Positions 3,157 to 47,490 of a DNA stretch of 52,805 nt are shown here, piece after piece (positions within the stretch are counted from its first letter, which is position 1; every line of letters starts with the position of its first letter). The stretch spans positions 52,525,196 through 52,578,000 of the forward strand of contig OZ360241.1 in assembly GCA_977017645.1 (NCBI GenBank), read 5' to 3'. The position numbers and the translations under genes are program-made. Below the pieces are notes generated by a model, which worked only from the letters and a program-made list of their open reading frames with translations, made no database searches and was not told the DNA's origin. This stretch comes from Torpedo marmorata (taxonomy: Eukaryota).

Positions 3157-3229
3157 TAATTATCCACATTAATTTGTGACTATTTTATATTCCGGGCCCT
3201 AAACATCACATTTGAGTGCAGCAAGAGTT

Positions 3230-3360
3230 AAACAAGAAAGTCTGCAGATGCTGGGGTCGAGTGCAGTACATAAACATGCTGGAGAGACTCAGCAGGTTAC
3301 TCAGCATCCTGAGGAAGGAAAGGGAAACCAACATTTCAGGCCTGCGCAACCTTCATCAGG
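3230..3360 (-). mobile_element. Penelope pLTR-like fragment with minimal hammerhead motif
   Basis: Minus strand reads CTGATGA-aggttgcgcaggcct-GAAA-tg-TT, followed by the cctgctgagtctctccagca block shared with the 6609-6759 repeat. Confidence 0.7.
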
Positions 3361-5429: not shown

Positions 5430-5880
5430 AGAAACATAAGAAGTGGGTCTATTGACCCCTCAAACCTGCTCTGATATTCACTAAGATCATGGCTGATCTT
5501 GTTTTGGCCTCAGCACCTCCTTCCCACTCTCTCCATATCCCCTGTGTCTCTTATAGTTCAAAGCTCTGTCAATCTCTACCTTGAATGTGTAAAAAAAGAC
5601 TTCACCTTCACAGCTCTCTGGGGTAGAGAATCCCAAAGAAATTCCTCCTCATCTCCATCCTAAATGAGCAACTGAGTATTTCTAAGATCCAACCCCCTAC
5701 TTCTGGACACCTCCACTGGGGAGACATCCAGTCAGCTTTCACCCCGTCAGTTCCCCTCAGAAATCTTACATTTCAATAAGATCATCTCTCATTCTTCTGT
5801 ACAACAATGGGCATAGATCCAACCTGCTTAGCCTCCCTTTATACATCCCAGGAATCAACATAATGAAACTTATATATAGA
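5430..5880 (-). mobile_element. CR1 LINE 3' fragment
   Basis: Minus ORF 5766-5954 ends RLSRLDLCPLLYRRMRDDLIEM (CR1 ORF2 C-terminal motif); tail repeats aacataagaaacataag lie at the left end. Confidence 0.8.
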
Positions 5881-5924
5881 GAGACCAAGACTTTACAGAG
5901 TACTACAGGGACAGTCTCACCAGC

Positions 5925-6040
5925 GCTGGAGAACCTCAGCAGGTCACACAGCATCTATAGGAAGCAAAGGAATATAACCTCCAAAGGGCTCGGGACCGTA
6001 ATGTTGGTTGTAACTTTGCTTCCTATAGACGCACTGTGAA
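5925..6040. mobile_element. Palindromic Penelope pLTR-derived hairpin element, degenerate
   Basis: ctataggaagcaaag...ctttgcttcctatag inverted arms surround a decayed hammerhead-like centre. Confidence 0.6.
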
Positions 6041-6218
6041 GTTGAATTAAAATTTCTTTACGTTCAGCCACCCCTTGCAATAATGGCCTGAAAAGTTGAC
6101 TCAAAACTTCCTAACACTCGATACGTCTTGCTATAAAAGCTAAAATTCCATTATCCTTTCATTCTGTCTGATTCATAGTTTTTAAATGCATTTGCTTATT
6201 AGAGACCTTTAAAAAAGG

Positions 6219-6672
6219 TCTCATACTTTGATGAAGGGCTCAAGCCCGAAACGTCGGTTATGTATTTCTACCTTTGCTACATTCTCATACTTTGATGAAG
6301 GGCTCAAGCCCGAAACGTCGGTTATGTATTTCTACCTTTGCTACATTCTCATACTTTGATGAAGGGCTCAAGCCCGAAACGTCGGTTATGTATTTCTACC
6401 TTTGCTACATTCTCATACTTTGATGAAGGGCTCAAGCCCGAAATGTCGGTTATGTATTTCTACCTTTGCTACATATTCTCATACTTTGATGAAGGGCTCA
6501 AGCCCGAAACGTCGGTTATGTATTTCTACCTTTGCTACATATTCTCATACTTTGATGAAGGGCTCAAGCCCGAAACGTCGGTTATGTATTTCTACCTTTG
6601 CTACATATTCTCATACTTTGATGAAGGGCTCAAGCCCGAAACGTCGGTTATGTATTTCTACCTTTGCTACAT
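6219..6672 (+). ncRNA. Tandem array of seven minimal type-I hammerhead ribozyme motifs (U3 variant, palindromic ACGU helix III)
   Basis: Each unit reads catact-TTGATGA-a-GGGCT ca AGCCC-GAAA-CG-TC-ggttatg. Helix II is a perfect 5-bp hairpin, and helix I catact/ggttatg pairs with one bulge. Activity is not demonstrated. Confidence 0.75.
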
Positions 6673-7026
6673 AAAAGACACTGTTTGACCTGCTGAGTTT
6701 CTCCAGCATTTGTGTTTTTTACTTCAACCACGGTGTCTACAGATTTTCGTGTTTTACTTCTCAATACTACAACAACTCTGTGAAAACTCTTTGAGGAATG
6801 CCTACCCTGAAGAAGTTCGCCTTTGCTCTCCGAAGGGAGTTCTGTGGGATTCTCTCTCACTGCTCCCCATCAAATTCTCATACTTTGATGAAGGGCTCAA
6901 GCCCGAAACGTCAGTTATATATTTCTACCTTTGCTACATAAAAGACACTGTTTGACCTGCTGAGTTTCTCCAGCATTTGTGTTTTTTACTTCAACCACGG
7001 TGTCTACAGATTTTCGTGTTTTACTT
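6222..7026 (+). mobile_element. Non-autonomous Penelope-derived / retrozyme-like element with eight hammerhead motifs
   Basis: Flanked by the 14-bp direct repeat tttaaaaaaggtct (6208-6221, 7027-7040). Contains 3x64-nt and 3x66-nt tandem units and two 151-nt direct repeats (6609-6759, 6876-7026) separated by 116 nt. Confidence 0.85.
6876..6920 (+). ncRNA. Eighth minimal hammerhead motif
   Basis: Same core as the array. The 3' strand of helix I is agttata, converting the innermost U-G pair to U-A. Confidence 0.7.
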
Positions 7027-7355
7027 TTTAAAAAAGGTCTTCCCAGCTTTGACAAGAGCTGAGACTGTACACCCAGCCTCATCCTTTCAGGCCATTCTGT
7101 GGGCAGAGTCTCAGAGATATGCCACTGAGGTCTCTCTGCCCCTCACCAGCAACCTCCTGGGTGCAAGGGGCAGTTTGCTGCCTCTGGCAGAGGTACGTAC
7201 AGCAGGGGAACCTGGCAGGGAAGCACAAGTCCCAAGTAGCAGGCCTGATCCAGCTTGATTTTTTTGACCCATTCCTGTCTGTGACCTTTTGTCATTCTTG
7301 TGATAATTATCTGCAAATAGGATTTTGTAGTACAGTAAAAGGATTATGTGAAGGC

Positions 7356-7630
7356 AATACACAAAAGTGCTGGAGAACCTCAGCACGTCACGCACCGTCT
7401 ATAAGAAGCAAAGGGATATAACCTCTAAAGGGCTTGGGCCCAAAACGTGGGTTATATCCCTTTGTTTCCTTATTGGTACTGCGTGACCTGCTGAGGTTAA
7501 AAACACACAGAATTGCTGGAGAAACTCAGCCAGTCTTGCAGCGCCCATAGGAGGTAAAAGATATATGCTGAGGTTGTCCAGCACTTTTGTGCTTTGCAGC
7601 ACAATCACTGCATCTGCAGACTTTCCTGTT
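7356..7630. mobile_element. Palindromic pLTR-derived hairpin element with a nested fragment of a related element (~7498-7565)
   Basis: Inverted arms caaagggatataacc/ggttatatccctttg and cacaaaagtgctgga/tccagcacttttgtg surround a decayed hammerhead centre gggcttgggcccaaaacgt. Confidence 0.7.
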
Positions 7631-7973
7631 TATCTGAAGGCAAGTTCAGATTTGAACTGGTAGGATTGGATCCCGCTTGCAAAATGTAATCAGCAATCCC
7701 CTCCACATCATAGAATGCAAGAACATTAATCCTTGCTTTTTAGTCGCTGTGACCTTGAGATGAATTTAAGGGTAATGAGGCGATCAATGTGGGTTTGACA
7801 AAAGTCTGTATCTTGGACGAATATGGCAGAGTGGACCTCCAGCTAAGTTCTTTGGAATCAAGCATCAATATATTCAAATGATGGTTATGGATCTTTGTTA
7901 ATCATTTAAAAGTCATGTTTCTGTGTACTTGATGTAATTTTCAAATGTTAATTGTATGGACTAATATGGTGCT

Positions 7974-8031
<58 letters not shown>

Positions 8032-8032: not shown

Positions 8033-9164
8033 AGCATAGAAAACATCAAAAAACATTTCATTTATGGTACCTAGAGTACCTGAACTGAAAAGGCATGGAA
8101 AATCATTAGTTTCAGGAATCCTAAATATACATAAAAATGACATTTGGATGTATTTAGCCTATGGATATTTAGACTGAAAATCTCCTGCTGCATAGAATGT
8201 TGGCTGTAAGGTATTGACTGCTGTGTAAAACAGACAAAAGTGGCCATGGTCACTGTTCAGTCTCTCATTGGCAACAAGTTAAGACACAAAATCACCCTGA
8301 AATTCCTTCGATTGGTCCGAGCAGGGAAGTCACCAGGGTTCTTGTTCTTTGTTGCTCACCAGTGATCTCACGGGTACTTGTTTATAGTTGGTCAGGTAAA
8401 GGTCAGAGTGTGATGACCCACACACCTGGTCAGTTCTTCTTGTCTTTACATGTTTACGATGGACAAAGGATGGAGGTCGTGGGACGCGAGCAACTCTTAC
8501 AGCAGGACAATGATGGAGAGGATAAAATTGAAGGGAAAAAAAATGGAAGAATGACTTTTATTTGAAGCTATTCCAGAATTAAAGAGAGGAATTATGAAAT
8601 GGGTAATTCAGAATGTTAAATATTTAATAAATATAACCAATTACAGCAAGGTTTCCAATCTTTACTTGCTCATATTTCACTGGTTCTATTATTAAAGCTA
8701 TTATTTTGAAAAGAGATGTTCTGGTGAATGTCTCATCAAATTGCATTAAATATTAAACAATATAGATAAGGTAAACTGAGATTATTGTATCAAAGTAAGA
8801 CAAGAAAATAGAACATAACTGGAAATTGGAATAATGTAAGTTCAGAATAAATGTTAGGAGAATCTTTCTTACTCATTGGTGGAGAAACGTTACGGAAGTA
8901 TTTCTTGTGTAAAAACATGAAAAACAATAATGCAGAGAAATTCCAATGCATCCATGTTCCCTGGTGCGGTGGGCTAATGACTTCTGGAGCCAGTGGTCAG
9001 TGGAGAGGTTGGCTGATAGTGGGAAGGATTGGGGGCAGGAGGGGTGGAGGGAGTAAAGCAGTGGTGGGGGTAAAGTGGTAGTGGCCTATGAAGCACAAAA
9101 TTGAATGGTAGGTATTGCAGTCAGAAGCAGTGCTAGGTGATCTATTTCGAATAGTACTGAGAGA

Positions 9165-9680
9165 TCTATAATGAATAGAGTTTTAAGGTATATAATGAAT
9201 AATGCTGTTGAGCCTGTAATGAATGGTGCTGTGGATTCTATAATGAATGATACTGTGAGGTCTATAATGAATTATACTTGGGTCAATAATGGATGGTTTT
9301 ATGGGATCCATAATGAATGGTGCAATGGGGTCTATAATGAATAATGCTTCGGCTCGAATAATGAATAGGGCTGTGGGGTCTCGTGTCATGGGGTCTGTAA
9401 TGAATGCTATAGTGTGGTCTCTAATGAATGGTGCAGTGTGGTCTCTAATGTATGGTGCAGTGAAGTCTCTAATGAATGGTGCAGTGTGGTCTCTAATGTA
9501 TGGTGCAGTGGACATTCTATTGAAAGGTGCAGTGTGGTTTTCTAATGTATGGTGCAATGGAGTCTAACAATTGGTGCTGAGGGGTGAATGATGAATGATG
9601 CAGTGGGATCTATGATGAATGTTGTAGTGGGGTCTCTAATAATTAGCGCTATAGGTTCTATAATGAATGGTGCCATGGGA
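9165..9680. repeat. ~24-bp minisatellite, left part
   Basis: Degenerate tandem units close to tctataatgaatggtgctgtgggg. Confidence 0.9.
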
Positions 9681-9737
9681 ACTTACAATTGTCTCTTACA
9701 ATTGATGTTATAGGATGCAAAATGAATGGTATGGTAG

Positions 9738-10664
9738 GATGCGTGCTTAGCCTACTGCTCTACTCGTTATACACCCATGACTGTGTGGCCAGGCACAAAT
9801 CCAATGCCATCTACAAGTTTGCCGATGACACCACAGTTATCGGCAGAATCACAATCGGCAATGAAGAAACGTACAGGAGGGAGATAGATCAGCTCGTTGA
9901 ATGGTGTAACGACAACAACCTTGCGCTCAACGTCAGCTAAACCAAGGAGCTGATTGTGGACTTCAGGAGGAAGTCAGGGGAACACGACCCAGTCCTCATC
10001 GAGGGCTCAGTAGTGGAGAGGGTCAAGAACTTCAAATTCCTGGGTGTCAACATCTCCAAGGATCTGTCCTGGAGCCTCCACGTTGATGCAATCACAAAGA
10101 AGGCTTGTCAGCGGCTATACTTTGTGAGGTGTCTGAGGAGATTCGGTATGTCAACGAAGACTCTCGTGAACTTCTACAGGTGTACCGTGGAGAGCATTCT
10201 GGCTGGTTGCATCACTGCCTGGTATGGAGGCGCCAACTCTCAGGACAAGAATAAACTCCAGAGGGTTGTGAACTCGGCCTGTGACATCACAGGCACCAGA
10301 CTTCACTCTATCGAGGACATCTACATGAGACGGTGTCTTAAAAAAGCAGCTTCTATCCTCAAGTACCCCCACCACCCAGGCCATGCCCTCTTCACTCTGC
10401 TACCATCAGGAAAAAGGTACAGGAGCCTAAAGATGAGCACTCAACGGCACAAGGACAGCTTCTTCCCCGCTGCCATCAGATTCCTGAATAATCAATGAAC
10501 CAAAGACACTGCCTTACTTTTCGTACACTATTATTTATATATATTTTTTATAGTAATGTCGTAAGATGGTTATAATATGAATGTTTGCACTATGATGCTG
10601 CCGCAAAACACCGAATTTCATGACTTGTTCATGACAATAAATTCTGATTCTGATTCTGATTCTG
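9738..10664 (+). mobile_element. Rex1/Babar-type LINE, 5'-truncated, with (ATTCTG)n tail
   Basis: GCVLSLLLYSLYTHDCVA..YKFADDTT, continuing through one in-frame stop into ORF 9956-10498 (..HPGHALFTLLPSGKRYRS..SFFPAAIR). Followed by a 3' UTR, AATAAA and a microsatellite tail. Confidence 0.92.
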
Positions 10665-10915
10665 AATAGTGCTATAGGGTGTATAATGAATGATATGCAC
10701 TCAGTAAGAATGGTGCTATATGGACTATAATGCATGATGCTGTGGAGTCTTATGTAATAGTGCAATGGGATCCATAACGAATGATGTAGTAGGTCTCTAA
10801 TAAAGAGCGCTGTATAATGAATAATGTGTACTTTATGATGCTTTGGGTCTATAATGAATGTTGCTATGTGGTTTACAATGAATGGTGCTCTGGTTTATAA
10901 CGAATAGTGCTGTGA
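10665..10915. repeat. ~24-bp minisatellite, right part
   Basis: The same tataatgaat..tgctgtg units resume after the LINE tail. Confidence 0.85.
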
Positions 10916-11183: not shown

Positions 11184-11249
11184 CATCACCTCACCCTAAC
11201 ATTGTTGGGAAGCCCTGCTTAAAGTTAAAAGTATATGTCAGACCAACAA
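11184..11249 (+). CDS. efna2: Ephrin-A2-like, internal 66-nt coding exon (end of receptor-binding domain)
   Basis: Acceptor gtgttttttacag and donor gtaagt; phase 1-1. Translates (x)SPHPNIVGKPCLKLKVYVRPT(N), the ephrin-A CLKLKV.VRP motif, closest to EFNA2 as I recall it. Confidence 0.93.
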
Positions 11250-19889: not shown

Positions 19890-20055
19890 AAGGGACAGGG
19901 AAGACTGCAGATGCTGGAATATGAAGGCAAACACCATCTGCTGCAGGAACTCAGTGAGTCGAGCAGCATCAGTGGAAGAAAAAGAATGGTTGACGTTCTC
20001 TTTCACCCACTGACGTTGTTTGACTCGCTGAGTTCCTCCAGCAAATTGTGTTTGG
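19890..20055. mobile_element. Palindromic pLTR-derived hairpin element (hammerhead core deleted)
   Basis: ggaactcagtgagtcgagcagcatcagtgg / ccactgacgttgtttgactcgctgagttcc inverted arms. Confidence 0.65.
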
Positions 20056-25737: not shown

Positions 25738-25853
25738 ATGATTCTATATACGAGTCACCTGAACCGTATCACAACAACGACGGGATCACAACCTTTAGGA
25801 TCTCTTGGCTCATCCTGGCAATGACCCTCATCCTGTTATTCCTTACATCATAG
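25738..25853 (+). CDS. efna2: Ephrin-A2-like, last coding exon with GPI-anchor signal
   Basis: Strong acceptor tttcctctcttttctag; phase matches the 11184-11249 exon. Translates (N)DSIYESPEPYHNNDGITTFRISWLILAMTLILLFLTS*; YESPEP matches the EFNA2-type YEAPEP motif, followed by small residues and a hydrophobic tail. Confidence 0.92.
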
Positions 25854-32887: not shown

Positions 32888-33014
32888 GGCTCAAGCCCGA
32901 AACGTCGGTTATGTATTTCTACCTTTGCTACATAAAAGACACTGTTTGACCTGCTGAGTTCTCCAGCTTTTGTGTTTTTTACTACACGGTGTCTACAGAT
33001 TTTCGTGTTTACTT
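32888..33014 (+). mobile_element. 5'-truncated copy of the 151-nt hammerhead-bearing repeat
   Basis: Near-identical to 6627-6759, but starts inside helix II and so lacks TTGATGA. Confidence 0.88.
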
Positions 33015-34563
33015 CTGTTATGCTCACACGTGTTTACATACACAAAATGTGTGTTGTATTTCTCTTAAATGCAGTTCAATTGGCTTCAGCGGAAACAATT
33101 TCACAAGCACATTACGTGTATAAGTATACCTGTATCATGTGTTTGGCATATGCAGCTGAGGATCAAATTCTAGTTAATAGAGTTTAAGCCAATGATATAC
33201 CACCTAGCTTTATTTGGAAACACTGCCGTTTAACGGATACCTAATCAATTGCTGTTTCACTACAATATCCCTGGCTCTTGGGCAGAGACCAGATTGGGAC
33301 TTGATGTTGTTTATTTTCATTGCTGTCTAGCAGAAGGAGGGCAAGAAAATGTTATGACCAGGAAGATTTATCCCATGACTAACAAGTACTAACAGTTGCA
33401 AGAGTTTAGACTTAAAGGATGGATTATAGGCCTATAATATACACACATACACATATATTTAAAGGATGAAATGAAATATACTGTATATCTGATCGATTCT
33501 CCCTCTTGTACTTCACTGGTTCCCCTTAGATACATCTCTGACGGTACTTGTGTGGAATTAACTGGCTGCACCAGCATCGAGTCAAAATTACATGATTGAC
33601 ATGATTACGGAGCTACTTCCTGCCACTCATGAACAATATGATGTAGTGACCTTGACTCTTCAGTAAAATTCTAGTCGCCTTTTCTCAAAGATTGAGCATG
33701 TAACACCAGCTTCAGCCAACTCACTGGTGTTCGTTCAACAGAGAGATAGGGAGAATCATTAAACCACTGAGTCATCGGATCTAGCTTTCAAAAAAACTGT
33801 TGCAAGCTCAGACTCCAGTTTGACTGCTGGGACCTTTCACATTAGTCCCTGTGATTTGGCTATGATCACCCCAGTAATAACCTAGCTCTTTGAATGATGC
33901 CTCTGCAAAGGATTATGATCATTGGAAGATATAGATGGTAAAACTTAACTGTGTAACTGGCAGTTTCAGCACGATGAAGCAAATGTTAGATAAGCGAGCA
34001 AGTAATTGGATCAGTCAATCACACAGAAATTTGAATAATTTGTTTTCAATTGTTGCTCGTTAGTTCAACACTTATTCAACAGCCCATGTCAAAATGTGGC
34101 CTTACGAACTCCAAGTTCCTGGCAGTTTTGATGGTAATTCCACGGATGGAATCTCGTCTATTTTAGACAAGTAATTGAGAGAGTAGTCTTTATGTAAAAT
34201 ACAACCATTGGGCCAATAGTTCAACACCAGGGGACATTCCTCAGTGGCTTTTCTCTCATCATTTAAGTGCTGGAAATTTTTTTGCAACCCTAAATATGAT
34301 ACAGTCAGCGTGCCAGAAATATGCATAATGATACCAGTTTATGATCTTTATACTGTAAATAAATGAATTATTTTAAAACTTTTGTTGAATAGATAAATGC
34401 TATTGTGTTGGTGGTACATCAAATACACTGCCAAGCAAAACATCTCAATCCACCATTACATTACCAAACCAGTCCTTGTAGCCCCATTTTTTATGTTTGT
34501 GACTGCAAATTAGGTTGCGCCCACAATGTTGGGAACCAGCAGTGTGGGAGATAATTGAGTGAG

Positions 34564-41329: not shown

Positions 41330-42510
41330 GCAAAAACCTGCAGATGTTGGAAATCTGAAATGAAAACAGAGAACACTGAATATATTCTGCAGGTCGGGCG
41401 CCATCTGTGGAGAGTTAAGGTTTCAGGTCAGGAAACATTAAAAAAAATCAAACATGTTTTAAGCAGCAGTAAAGAATGAGGTGTGGAGATAATAAACAGA
41501 GTGTCCAATGAGGTGGAGACAAAGCATGACTGATTGACACATTGGTGTCAGCTGAGAGAGAGTGCAGGAATATTTTAACCTCATCCTATCTGCCTGGAGG
41601 AGATGTAAATAAAAGAAGAAAGAAAATAAAAGGTAAGAGGCAAAACTATAGGACTCCTAGAGAATTTAAGATACAAAACACTGCAGTTATTAGAAATCAG
41701 AAATAAAGCAGAGAATTTTGGAACTGGTCAGGTAGTATTGGTGTAGAGGAAATGGCATAAACCTTTCACCAAAATGACTGTGCTGAGACAAGCTGGAAAG
41801 GCTAGTTATCTAAAGTTGCTAAATTCAGTGTAAAGTTCTGAGGGTTGTGATATAGCTGGTTGGAAGATGATATGCTGTTCCACAAGATTATGTTGAACTT
41901 TGTTGGAGCGATCAATGTCAGAGCCCAAAGACAGAAATGTCAGAGCTGAAGTGAGATGTGGAGTGAATGGAGGTATTTTGCAGAGTAGTCACCTTATCTG
42001 AGTCAGTTGTCTGCAATCTAGAGGAGATCATATCATGAGCACAGGATACATTAAATTAAGTACAAGGGCTTCCACCTGAATGGACTGCTTAGGTCCCTGA
42101 AAGGTGGGAAGGGAAGAAGTAAAGGGGCGAACGTTGAATCTTCTGCGCTTGCATGGGGATGTGACAATAAGAAGGTGATGGGAATGGTGGATGTGGAGGT
42201 GTTGAACCAGGGAATAACAGAGGAAAATGTCTCTCTGAAATACTAGAATTGAGGATGTGTCTGGTGGTGGCATCATGAAGGTGGCAGAAATCGTAGCTGT
42301 GAATCTTTGAAGCATCAGCATCTCTGCTCATTCATCATCACCCCGCTCTTGCATCATTCAATCTCTCCTGGCCTCACAGACAACCCCTTTGTTCTCTTCA
42401 CCTCCCCCTTCTCTCCAACTTAAAACTAGTTCTGACGAAAGGTCATCAACCTGAAATGTTAATTCTGTTTATTTTTCAACAGATACAGTCGGACTGGCAG
42501 AATATTTACT
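41330..42510 (-). mobile_element. Degenerate Penelope-like element: GIY-YIG region with 3' pLTR and inverted 5' pLTR
   Basis: Minus-strand peptides FCHLHDATTRHI, FQRD..L..SLV, PCKRRRFNVRPFTSSLPTFQGPKQSIQV and EQHIIFQPAISQPSELYTEFSNFR* match the PLE Zn-linker/GIY-YIG C-terminus. The + strand hammerhead CTGACGA..aggt/acct..GAAA-tg-TT at 42432-42460 lies in the inverted pLTR. Confidence 0.8.
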
Positions 42511-45389: not shown

Positions 45390-47490
45390 ATCAAAACAAA
45401 CCACAGTCAGCAGTCCTGCTGCTAGAATAAAATGTGAATTATATTGTACAATTCCAAAAGATAACGTCTGTTCAGGTCCGATCATCACTTTATGACCATT
45501 TATAGCGGCTTGTACCTTTTATTCTATGGGCTACAAACCATGTGCATCGACTCATAACCCAAGATAAAACACTTAATAGAGTGAAACACAAATGTCTGCA
45601 AATGCGGTGATTGTAGTAAAATGCTGGAGAAACTCAGCAGATCACCCAGCGTCCATCGGAGGTAAAGATACCTTGAAGAATGGGTCATGCCTGAAACGTT
45701 GGTTATACCTCCCACGGACGCTGCAAGACCTGCTGAGTTCCTCCAGCATTTTTGTGTGTTTTTATATAAACCACTTAATGTGGCAAAAACTTACATTTGC
45801 TTTTCATCAACTTCACATTATGCCAGTGTAATTGTTTCAGAACTTCAGCTAATATTTAAAGATTTCATTCTTCAGGGCACAAGTAATCAGAACACTCATA
45901 TTTATCCCTTGTAAAATTTTGTGTGTTGTGTCATGGAAGAACTTGGGGGATGTTTTAACAGAATCACAGAGTTTCGTGTAAGAAAAGAGTTCTTCCTGTG
46001 TACTGATGGCTAACTATTGTTTGCTATCCTGATTGACATCTAATTGCATTTACTCATGGGATAAATCCAATTTTGAAAATGCTTTTGCTCTCGCCCGCTT
46101 TTATGAAGTTGGCAGTGAATATTGCTCAGCTTCCACTGTTTGATTGAGTGTGACCTTATATTTGGAAAAAGACCTGACTGCTTATCTGATTTGAGAACCA
46201 TCACATCATTGCGGCCTAATTACAATAATCTGTCTCTGCCAAAACTTCATACTCCTGCACTGCATCCAATGCAAATTTTACTCAGGTTATTGTAAGGGAC
46301 AAACCAAGCAATGCAATAAATAGGTTTCACACCTGGCTTAACATGGATGTTCAAAATGGCATTTAATATCATTAGAACAATGGTCAAACCTCTTAACAGA
46401 GCAGTCCACACCAATGTCACTATCCATATTGATTTGCTTCCTTATTGATTAAAATGTGCCCAGAAATCTTGATCACCTGATTTCCATTTTGCCAACTTAC
46501 ATGTATAAACAAGCCAGTTTCTTCATCATTGCCTACTTAGAACACAAACACCATTTCTTCAGCCTCCTCATCAATGTCTACGCAATGAAGTTTAACATGA
46601 TATCTGACCTTGCTTTCAGTTTGGCATGTGTCCTGCATGGTGCAGTAAAATGACCCTACATCACTACGTGTAGCTGACAGTTGTTTCCTATTTGCCTCAC
46701 TGCTCTGGCTGATTGTCATTATGTCTTCCACAAGTAGATTGCCGAGACATAACGCTTTTCAGTCTGGTTCAGATTAGACACTGCAGTCTGCACAGCATGA
46801 ACTATTTAGGATGGAAGAAACTCTTCTGCATTTAACATTGCCAGCTCCATCGAAGTGTGAGTAAATTGGTCAGGGTATTGTATATCTCTGGTTAAGAATA
46901 TCGCTTTCTTCTCTTGAATTGCCTCATTGACCACTTCAGCATTTGTCTCGAAATTTAAAATACCATTGGTCTAAACATGCCCCGAACATTTAACATATGA
47001 AGTGAATGACTGTAGTCTAAATCCTTATTGAAAGCCCCTGGCTTTTCAAAATAAACAATGTTCCCATTTGTTCTTCTTTCAGCTCTCCTTGGTGCCAAAA
47101 GTGATGATGCCATATACAACTAAACATGATTTTCTTGCTTTTCAGAAACTTTTAGTTCACTGGCTGCATGATTCTACCTACCGAACCACCTACACTATTT
47201 TTTGAACTTGATTCCCTCAATACGTAAACTGTCAAAGCCTTGTAATCTGCTCCATATGTGTTGGACTGCGCTGCCTCACATGCTTCCTCTATGAAATGCT
47301 GGAAGTATGCAATCCATGTGGAACTGGCGGTTGCTGGTATCACATGAATAGCAGTGCTTTTACAGTGTTTTGGTTTCTTCCCATACTGAGGTTGTTCCAC
47401 TTACTGTTGCTATTGCAAAATAGGTGCATCTCCCGACTCACTCAACAAAAAGCATACAGTCTGTCCATAAATGGAAATCCAATATTTAAG
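45390..47490 (-). mobile_element. Highly degenerate Ty3/Gypsy gag-protease-RT relic
   Basis: Minus-strand fragments in the expected order: protease-like MDSDIGVDCSV, IHVKPGVKPIYC..VPY, YKVTLNQTVEAEQYSLP, FSKLDLS, KILQGI, EVLKQL..KSKCKF. Many stops and frameshifts. Confidence 0.75.
45580..45762 (+). mobile_element. Palindromic pLTR-derived element with hammerhead motif at the apex, inserted in the Gypsy relic
   Basis: Arms aaaatgctggagaaactcagcag / ctgctgagttcctccagcatttt; centre atacc-TTGAAGA-..-GAAA-CG-TT-ggttat (45668-45706). Confidence 0.75.

What the first reader, a model, noticed from the sequence alone, without database searches (positions are those of the whole stretch)
6208..7040. 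Eight obligate-dimer minimal hammerhead ribozymes in tandem, sense-oriented in an ephrin-A2 intron
SEEN: units start at 6219, 6283, 6347 (64 nt), 6411, 6477, 6543 (66 nt), 6609 and 6876. Each reads catact-UUGAUGA-a-GGGCU(ca)AGCCC-GAAA-CG-UC-gguuaug; unit 4 has GAAAUGUC. The block is bounded by a 14-bp TSD and the units are nearly identical, so it is young. KNOWN: Penelope-like elements carry minimal type-I hammerheads with a very short palindromic helix III that cleave as dimers. INFERRED: helix III here is only A-CG-U and cannot close in a monomer, but ACGU is self-complementary. Amplifying exactly the ribozyme-sized unit puts dimer partners in cis every 64-66 nt. Predicted GUC cleavage falls after 6255, 6319, 6383, 6447, 6513, 6579, 6645 and 6912. 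This would cut efna2 pre-mRNA and release 64/66-nt monomers that could circularise, effectively a ribozyme minisatellite. Caveat: the core has U rather than C at position 3 (U3-G8 wobble), which may slow cleavage. The same U3 and bulged helix I recur in the diverged copy at 45668-45706, suggesting a family trait rather than decay.
Basis: partly seen in the sequence, partly recalled or inferred. Interest (0 to 1): 0.88.

Follow-up and report, generated by a model that had tools for sequence, protein, structure and literature searches.

The report
Stuttered Penelope ribozyme array in intron
This is a recent insertion of a very common Penelope-type jumping gene into an ephrin-A gene intron, with its small ribozyme-like segment repeated eight times, likely as a copying stutter seen at many other insertions, and it is predicted to cut RNA weakly or not at all.

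Summary
In detail: eight units, a 14-bp target duplication, and sense orientation in intron 2 of an ephrin-A gene, likely efna2. The insert is an internally deleted copy of a young Neptune-type Penelope-like element (RT plus GIY-YIG). Each unit is its pLTR minimal hammerhead, a known motif class. U3 is the family state: 46,245 exact copies against 63 with C3. Helix I covaries across subfamilies. The array itself is not special. Sixteen other loci examined carry 5'-side reiterations of the same pLTR, with units of 35 to about 115 nt; five of them lack the catalytic core. The 64/66-nt junction occurs 9 times genome-wide, 6 of them here, so it has not spread. An older C3 relative forms a minisatellite of at least 114 units. 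Best reading: repeated template jumps by the reverse transcriptase at integration, possibly followed by DNA-level duplication. The double-hammerhead fold lies 14-18 kcal/mol above competing folds. All 60 sampled copies end downstream of the cut site, and copy ends show no excess there. Efficient cutting of the ephrin pre-mRNA and release of circles is unlikely, but untested.

The parts
6208..6221 (+). Left target-site duplication (14 bp); last 3 nt shared with the start of unit 1 (microhomology at the 5' junction)
6219..6410 (+). Units 1-3 (64 nt each): pLTR positions q-1/q1 to q63 (q1 = first base of unit), each with one minimal hammerhead (q4-q44; predicted cut after q37)
6411..6608 (+). Units 4-6 (66 nt each): pLTR positions q-1 to q65; unit 4 has a CpG transition in helix III
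6609..6871 (+). Unit 7: hammerhead, 151-nt pLTR tail and the first 112 nt of the element's 5' region (q1-q263); one difference from natural full-length copy L033
6872..6874 (+). Three extra A residues at the internal-deletion junction, not in the parent element; likely non-templated
   Evidence: the non-templated reading is inference
6875..7026 (+). Unit 8: 3' pLTR end, hammerhead plus tail ending at q151, the commoner of the family's two 3' end clusters
7027..7040 (+). Right target-site duplication
11184..11249 (+). Ephrin-A (likely efna2) exon 3, first exon downstream of the array
25738..25853 (+). Ephrin-A terminal coding exon
   Evidence: found with a short recalled motif
32888..33016 (+). 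Second young copy of the same family, 5'-truncated at q19 (core lost)
45619..45774 (+). Diverged relative: inverted 5' piece plus a U3 hammerhead-like pLTR

Best explanation
The block is a recent, internally deleted insertion of a high-copy Neptune-type Penelope-like retroelement, whose hammerhead-bearing end segment was likely reiterated by repeated template jumps of the element's reverse transcriptase during integration, and whose ribozymes are predicted to cleave weakly or not at all in the host intron. SHOWN: the parent is a 4.0-4.2 kb RT + GIY-YIG element; the insert reads, 3' to 5', q151 to q-1, then q263 to q-1, then q65 to q-1 three times, then q63 to q-1 (the last copy to q1) three times, then target DNA; all seven internal junctions leave the template at the same point; similar 5'-side stutters with other endpoints occur at other loci. 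INFERRED: the enzyme primed at the nicked T-rich target, started at the tail site q151, ran off a template end near q-1, re-annealed further 3' on the RNA and repeated this, then joined the target by 3-nt microhomology. The identical 3+3 blocks may include later slippage duplications. PREDICTED: in the array RNA, helix II strands swap between neighbours and the core strand pairs across the cleavage triplet, so the double-hammerhead fold is rare unless a protein chaperones it. The array has no evolved function for the host.
For: Parent element: full-length partial-tandem copies, RVT_1 above cut-off and a weak GIY-YIG match, C-X4-C-X2-C linker. Copy number: 46,245 exact 34-mers plus 17,184 with another base at N7. 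Junction parse: one donor point for all seven junctions here. In 16 other loci parsed, units run from 35 to about 115 nt; in 15 of 16 the 3'-most unit was seen to carry the normal tail; 5 of 16 abut an inverted 5' copy; several arrays mix different junctions with extra bases (L013, L179, L182); 5 of 16 lack the core (L109, L110, L180, L182, L183). A non-ribozyme segment is reiterated the same way in L028. Back-jump junctions with extra letters also occur in contigs of runs X1 and X2 (table 5c: 12 rows shown, 84 more not shown). Arrays were seen at 3 independent sites among 120 loci not chosen for a junction. Folding: active dimer 18.0-18.7 kcal/mol above the free ensemble, 13.6-14.7 even with helix II hairpins fixed, P about 1e-13. 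60 of 60 sampled copies end at q111-158, beyond the cut site q37. Literature: low activity of dimers and trimers (PMC4209133); no cleavage without protein, and cleavage not needed for insertion (PMC11167929); 8 of 9 Xenopus retrozyme dimers inactive (bioRxiv 10.64898/2026.07.22.740005).
Against: The RT-jump step is inferred from junction anatomy only. Identical junctions repeated three times fit DNA-level duplication equally well, and L107 (13 units) and L277 (at least 114 units) show internal turnover typical of minisatellites. The 16 arrays were collected partly with junction-biased queries. Helix I covaries across U3 subfamilies, and a structure-compatible helix I variant has 3,323 copies, so the fold appears to have been kept in source elements, which argues for some activity. 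ViennaRNA omits tertiary core contacts, Mg2+ and proteins, and I had no known-active dimer to calibrate against. L013 has junctions at or within about 2 nt of the cut site. No cleavage or expression data were obtained.
Confidence: 0.7

Rival explanations
1. Ordinary minisatellite growth: the element inserted with two or three hammerhead copies, and replication slippage or unequal crossing-over later expanded the 64- and 66-nt units. Ribozyme activity is irrelevant.
For: Homogeneous 3x64 and 3x66 blocks; unit 8 has two changes absent from units 1-7. L107 shows variants recurring between units, and L277 is a 4.4-kb array of at least 114 units. The bioRxiv preprint proposes local amplification from pLTRs.
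Against: It needs seed junctions, and these sit on the 5' side of insertions with varied joints and extra bases, often against the inverted 5' copy. With about 0.4% divergence (3 changes in about 830 nt) there was little time. It is not exclusive of the best explanation.
Confidence: 0.3
2. One reading: neighbouring units fold as double hammerheads, cut the ephrin pre-mRNA and release 64/66-nt RNAs that circularise, that is, a nascent non-LTR retrozyme.
For: The nested double-hammerhead can be drawn with only standard pairs for 6 of 6 adjacent unit pairs tested. Helix I covariation: 5 pairs with changes on both sides, covariation score reached by 0 of 500 shuffles. N7 and N17 vary in the permitted way. 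A natural U3 with G8 core variant is mentioned in PMC7151607 (passage). The array meets the preprint's operational definition of a retrozyme.
Against: U3 with G8 replaces the C3-G8 core pair (importance stated in PMC3884650 passages). The fold gap is 14-18 kcal/mol. No tertiary loop I-loop II contact was identified. The junction has not spread (9 matches, 6 here). Of 30 inspected among 199 copies that diverge right after GUC, only about 1 is a true end. Slow intronic hammerhead cleavage left splicing intact in work cited in PMC2995048 (passages).
Confidence: 0.12
3. Rolling-circle reverse transcription of a small circular RNA produced the multimer.
For: Proposed for PLEs and retrozymes in general.
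Against: One circle gives one junction, but this insert has three junction types (64, 66, 267), none at the cut site, and no other locus has the 64-nt junction.
Confidence: 0.04
4. Assembly artefact inflating the copy number.
For: No run from the same individual was available: the best holder differs at 10 of 269 flank bases.
Against: Unit-specific variants, two unit lengths, a clean TSD, a 78.8-Mb contig, and many analogous arrays, including junctions in independent runs.
Confidence: 0.04

Closest known systems
Minimal type-I hammerheads (min-HHR) in pLTRs of metazoan Penelope-like elements (Cervera and De la Pena 2014, PMC4209133; parts 1-2 of 4 read)
   Same: No helix III loop, palindromic 15.2-16.2, extra nucleotide between A9 and G10.1, G10.1-C11.1 pair, location in the pLTR, thousands of dispersed truncated copies.
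   Different: The core is U3 with G8, not C3-G8 or the reported U3-A8. Helix II is short (4 bp). It is fixed in more than 60,000 copies over several subfamilies.
Neptune clade PLEs (definition from PMC8557442, passages)
   Same: RT followed by a C-terminal GIY-YIG, CX2-5CxxC linker, partial tandems, inverted 5' copies, 30-40 nt optional tail, pLTR hammerhead.
   Different: The window copy is non-autonomous (almost the whole ORF deleted) with a seven-fold 5' stutter. No RT tree was built.
Animal non-LTR retrozymes (PMC7229834, passages; Li et al. 2026 bioRxiv, parts 1-3 of 5 read)
   Same: Tandem units each with a type-I hammerhead, derived from a pLTR. The size (51-972 bp families) and copy number (mostly 7 or fewer) fall in the reported range, and 42-44% of Xenopus copies are intronic.
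   Different: Canonical retrozymes have 170-400 nt monomers, canonical active hammerheads, dispersed families and abundant circular RNAs. This unit is single-locus, minimal and U3, with no evidence of expression or mobility.
Poseidon element of Anolis (PAc; PMC11167929, parts 1-2 of 4 read)
   Same: Two 3' end clusters about 35 nt apart downstream of the hammerhead (q111-119 and q146-158 here), AT-rich target, copying through an uncut hammerhead.
   Different: Different clade and a C3-G8 core. No 5' reiteration was described in the parts read.

Membership tests
Penelope-like element (EN+) | [quoted passage not shown] | tested here: met
   RVT_1 30 bits (cut-off 29.6); GIY-YIG 17.6-19 bits, below its 22.6 cut-off, in 2 of 3 ORFs scanned; the third ORF is the N-terminal part
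Penelope-like element (EN+) | Partial-tandem pLTRs, inverted 5' copies, optional 30-40 nt tail | tested here: met
   3' ends 20 of 60 at q105-122, 38 of 60 at q140-158, 2 between
Neptune clade | CX2-5CxxC zinc-finger-like linker between RT and EN | tested here: met
   C-X4-C-X2-C in the L033 ORF; criterion from PMC8557442, shared with Nematis
Neptune clade | RT phylogeny groups with Neptune | not tested
   No reference RT set in session
Minimal type-I hammerhead | Core C3 U4 G5 A6 N7 G8 A9 and G12 A13 A14 A15, U16 H17, with a Watson-Crick 3-8 pair | tested here: not met
   U3 with G8 in all 8 units and in 46,245 vs 63 copies; all other core positions match
Minimal type-I hammerhead | Helices I and II conserved as structure | tested here: met
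   Helix I: 5 of 6 pairs with changes on both sides, 79.8% of cells paired; slid controls 9-50% vs 87.5%. Helix II was largely fixed by my search pattern, so it is not an independent test. Related sequences can beat shuffles without structure.
Minimal type-I hammerhead | Palindromic helix III allowing dimer pairing | tested here: met
   4-nt palindrome in 7 of 8 units, wobble-compatible in unit 4
Minimal type-I hammerhead | Self-cleavage as a dimer | not testable with these tools
   Folding disfavours it; needs an assay
Rfam hammerhead families | Match to a covariance model | tested here: not met
   No hammerhead hit at E<=5 in 5500-8000
Non-LTR retrozyme | Tandem repeat with two or more consecutive hammerhead-bearing units | tested here: met
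   definition. Their descriptor may not accept U3.
Non-LTR retrozyme | Dispersed family of the same monomer (mobility) | tested here: not met
   Junction pattern has 9 matches genome-wide, 6 in this array and 3 with different joints
Non-LTR retrozyme | Expressed as self-processed linear and circular RNA | not testable with these tools
   Needs RNA from tissue that expresses the gene

The most novel reading that the evidence does not exclude
Penelope reverse transcriptase reiteratively re-copies a short pLTR segment at the 5' junction, a telomerase-like stutter. It seeds hammerhead minisatellites at 1-3% of insertions, and this is how animal non-LTR retrozymes are born. The lineage's fixed U3·G8 wobble core is an attenuated, protein-gated ribozyme that lets tens of thousands of copies sit in introns, yet arrays such as this one are cut when the element's protein is present.
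Probability: 0.2. Interest if true: 0.65.

Novelty: new variant of a known kind. Interest (0 to 1): 0.32.

Why it matters
The locus itself probably does not matter to the host. The family is the useful part. It is a young, very high-copy PLE with a non-canonical U3·G8 hammerhead core whose helix I still covaries. It produces short hammerhead arrays at independent insertions, in a series from two units to more than 100. That bears on two open questions stated in the papers read: what PLE hammerheads do (PMC8557442 and PMC11167929 leave it unclear), and how pLTR-derived tandem retrozymes arise (the 2026 preprint leaves mobilisation open). Natural U3 and C3 copies and natural arrays of different unit size are ready substrates for one assay.

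Tried and rejected
Rfam scan: no hammerhead family hit. Fossil-cleavage test: 199 copies diverge right after GUC vs 57 at a control position 5 nt downstream. Inspection of 30 of each showed mostly substitutions at the CpG and small deletions, about 1 true end in each set (L129; L176), so no excess. I did not test 5' ends at the cut site. C3 depletion test: 63 of 46,308 (0.14%) vs a T>C background of 4 of 862 and 8 of 840 tail sites. This is lower but imprecise and context-dependent, and the neighbouring-T control turned out to be a subfamily (3,323), so it is inconclusive. Searches used a pattern one base too long, so they count only 7-nt-spacer variants (43 C3, 167 U3); they were used only to collect older C3 relatives. 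One search used a structure string off by one column; one search is the correct one. Folding of the C3 array L221 failed in the script and was not repeated. Sequencing runs: no RNA holder listed; only contigs of other organisms or individuals could be laid, on the left flank plus one unit. Papers not held: Lünse et al. 2017 on PLE hammerhead dimers and Przybilski and Hammann 2007 on 3-8 pair exchanges; they may already cover U3·G8. Searches 'hammerhead + U3-G8' (0 papers), 'hammerhead + C3U + wobble' (0), 'Penelope-like + template jump + tandem + hammerhead' (0) and 'Penelope + template switching + inverted + pLTR' (1, listing only) do not prove absence from print. The preprint's supplementary tables could not be seen and may list this family. 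Earlier-findings look-ups returned nothing.

Full report
Observation. The sequence is as described. Units start at 6219, 6283, 6347, 6411, 6477, 6543, 6609 and 6876, the GUC triplets end where stated, and a 14-bp duplication lies at 6208-6221 and 7027-7040. Only three substitutions separate the eight hammerhead units. An ephrin exon 2 lies about 31 kb upstream of the window on the plus strand. Exon 3 is at 11184-11249 and a terminal exon at 25738-25853, so the array is sense in intron 2. This exon 2 scores 189 bits against ephrin-A5 and 161 against A2. Another locus scores 178 and 123 and is the better A5, so efna2 is the likely name, by exclusion.

What it is. The segment belongs to a young, very abundant retroelement in a 6.2-Gb genome. 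The 34-nt hammerhead motif has 46,245 exact copies, and a pattern with another base at N7 adds 17,184. Full-length copies are 4.0-4.2 kb partial tandems. Their ORF has an RT domain, a C-X4-C-X2-C linker and a weak C-terminal GIY-YIG match, the anatomy given for Neptune-type Penelope-like elements (PMC8557442 passages). Taking the first base of a unit as q1, the predicted cut is after q37. All 60 sampled copies end further downstream: 20 at q111-119, 38 at q146-158 and 2 between. This matches the two-site tail explained by internal RT initiation (PMC11167929). The window insert is a deleted derivative: 3' to 5' it reads q151 to q-1, three extra A, q263 to q-1, three copies of q65 to q-1, three of q63 to q-1 (the last to q1), then target DNA joined by 3 shared bases. 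Contigs from runs X1 and X2 follow the left flank to 6209 and 6216. As I read the record coordinates, they then run on for about 340 and 230 letters unlike the insert. I infer an empty site in those organisms but could not see the letters.

The ribozyme. It is the minimal type-I hammerhead described for PLE pLTRs (PMC4209133), except that position 3 is U. U3 is the family state: C3 occurs in 63 copies, at or below the background T>C rate. Among the first 100 matches of other subfamilies, 97 are U3. Older relatives with C3 exist (and window 3330-3359 on the minus strand). In 28 distinct sequences from several subfamilies, helix I (2 bp, bulge, 4 bp) has changes on both sides in 5 of 6 pairs. 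The covariation score is reached by 0 of 500 shuffles, and slid controls pair 9-50% of cells against 87.5%. Relatedness inflates such tests, and helix II was largely fixed by my pattern. Still, the fold seems to have been kept in source elements after U3 arose. A natural U3 with G8 core has been mentioned before (PMC7151607 passage). Two key papers on PLE dimers and 3-8 exchanges were not held.

Is the array special? No. The 64/66-type junction pattern has 9 matches in the genome, 6 in this array and 3 with different joints, so the unit has not moved on its own. Sixteen other loci that I parsed carry reiterations on the 5' side of an insertion, with units of 35, 45, 46, 47/62, 49, 51, 52, 53/54, 60, 64 (another register), 68 nt and others. 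Five of the 16 lack the catalytic core, one stops at the cut site, five abut an inverted 5' copy, and several mix joints with extra bases. A non-ribozyme segment is repeated the same way in L028. These 16 came partly from junction-biased queries. Among 120 loci not chosen for a junction, 3 independent arrays were seen, and none among the first 100 listed exact matches. By extrapolation, hundreds exist genome-wide. L107 has 13 units, and an older C3 relative forms at least 114 units over 4.4 kb. Similar back-jump junctions appear in contigs of other organisms.

Mechanism. Shown: one donor point for all seven junctions here, varied acceptor points, extra bases at one junction, microhomology at the target, and the same pattern elsewhere. 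Inferred: RT primed at the T-rich nick, began at the tail site, repeatedly left the template near q-1, re-annealed downstream, and finally joined the target. The identical 3+3 blocks could include later slippage, which clearly operates on the larger arrays. A single rolling circle cannot give three junction types.

Activity. The double-hammerhead can be drawn between neighbours with standard pairs. In ViennaRNA it lies about 18 kcal/mol above the free ensemble, and about 14 above it even with helix II hairpins fixed. Helix II strands swap between units and the core strand pairs across the cleavage triplet. The model lacks tertiary, Mg2+ and protein effects and was not calibrated on a known active dimer. 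Copy ends show no excess at the cut site, though L013 has joints there. Published relatives with intact cores cleave weakly as dimers or trimers or only with the element's protein, and 8 of 9 tested Xenopus dimers did not cleave. Slow intronic hammerhead cleavage left splicing intact in work cited in PMC2995048. I put efficient cutting with circle release at about 12%.

Comparison and verdict. It works like a PLE pLTR stutter. It meets the operational definition of a non-LTR retrozyme (tandem hammerhead units) but fails the mobility criterion and the canonical-core criterion. PLE hammerheads, their dimer logic and pLTR-derived tandem arrays, including intronic ones, are in print. What appears less covered, within my limited searches, is a U3·G8 core fixed in more than 60,000 copies with covarying helix I, and the 5'-junction stutter as the seed of such arrays. 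Verdict: new variant of a known kind, interest 0.32.

Noticed in passing
L277:457-4818 approx (G000:C25 about 209,776,950-209,781,320, minus strand); also L221: Minisatellite of at least 114 units of 36-37 nt, most with a canonical C3 hammerhead core (89 with C at N7), from an older subfamily. It lies between an inverted 5' piece and a normal pLTR tail; helix I looks weak.
   Followed up: partly
L107 / L278 (G000:C41 about 16,678,700-16,679,400, minus strand): 13-unit, 45-nt array of the same young family, with three natural C3 units and variants recurring between units; a natural U3-versus-C3 comparison in one array.
   Followed up: partly
L013:1290-1540: Array of 48-49 nt units whose joints fall at or within about 2 nt of the predicted cut site; the only hint seen of templates ending there.
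   Followed up: partly
L001-L007: Several short deleted copies join position q263-268 of the element's 5' region to the hammerhead start with different joints; a possible third RT entry hot spot, but the query selected for it.
   Followed up: no
L066-type alignments, L237-L266 vs L211-L235: U3 subfamilies look as if they arose by insertion of a U after the ancestral C3, with the old C3 recruited into helix I. This is an impression, not tested.
   Followed up: no
genome-wide: 3,323 copies carry C at helix I position 2.1, turning a U·G wobble into C-G; a propagated structure-compatible subfamily.
   Followed up: no
window 3226-3359 (-) and 42432-42465 (+): Two older hammerhead-like pLTR relics with canonical C3 and different helix II sequences.
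   Followed up: partly
window 5925-6060, 7356-7631, 45580-45774, about 19900-20053: Old palindromic relics (inverted 5' pLTR plus pLTR) of related families that look like MITEs.
   Followed up: no
window 9149-9640 and 10846-10911: Degenerate 24-nt tandem repeats flanking a LINE RT fragment (9647-10495).
   Followed up: no
L033:4345-4926 and equivalents in other full-length copies: The parent ORF carries a variable-length internal tandem repeat and a proline-rich stretch between the N-terminal domain and RT; none of the 13 copies checked had an uninterrupted ORF.
   Followed up: no
L270 and L272: Two near-identical ephrin-B coding stretches on different contigs; the C48 one reads through exon boundaries and may be a retrocopy.
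   Followed up: no
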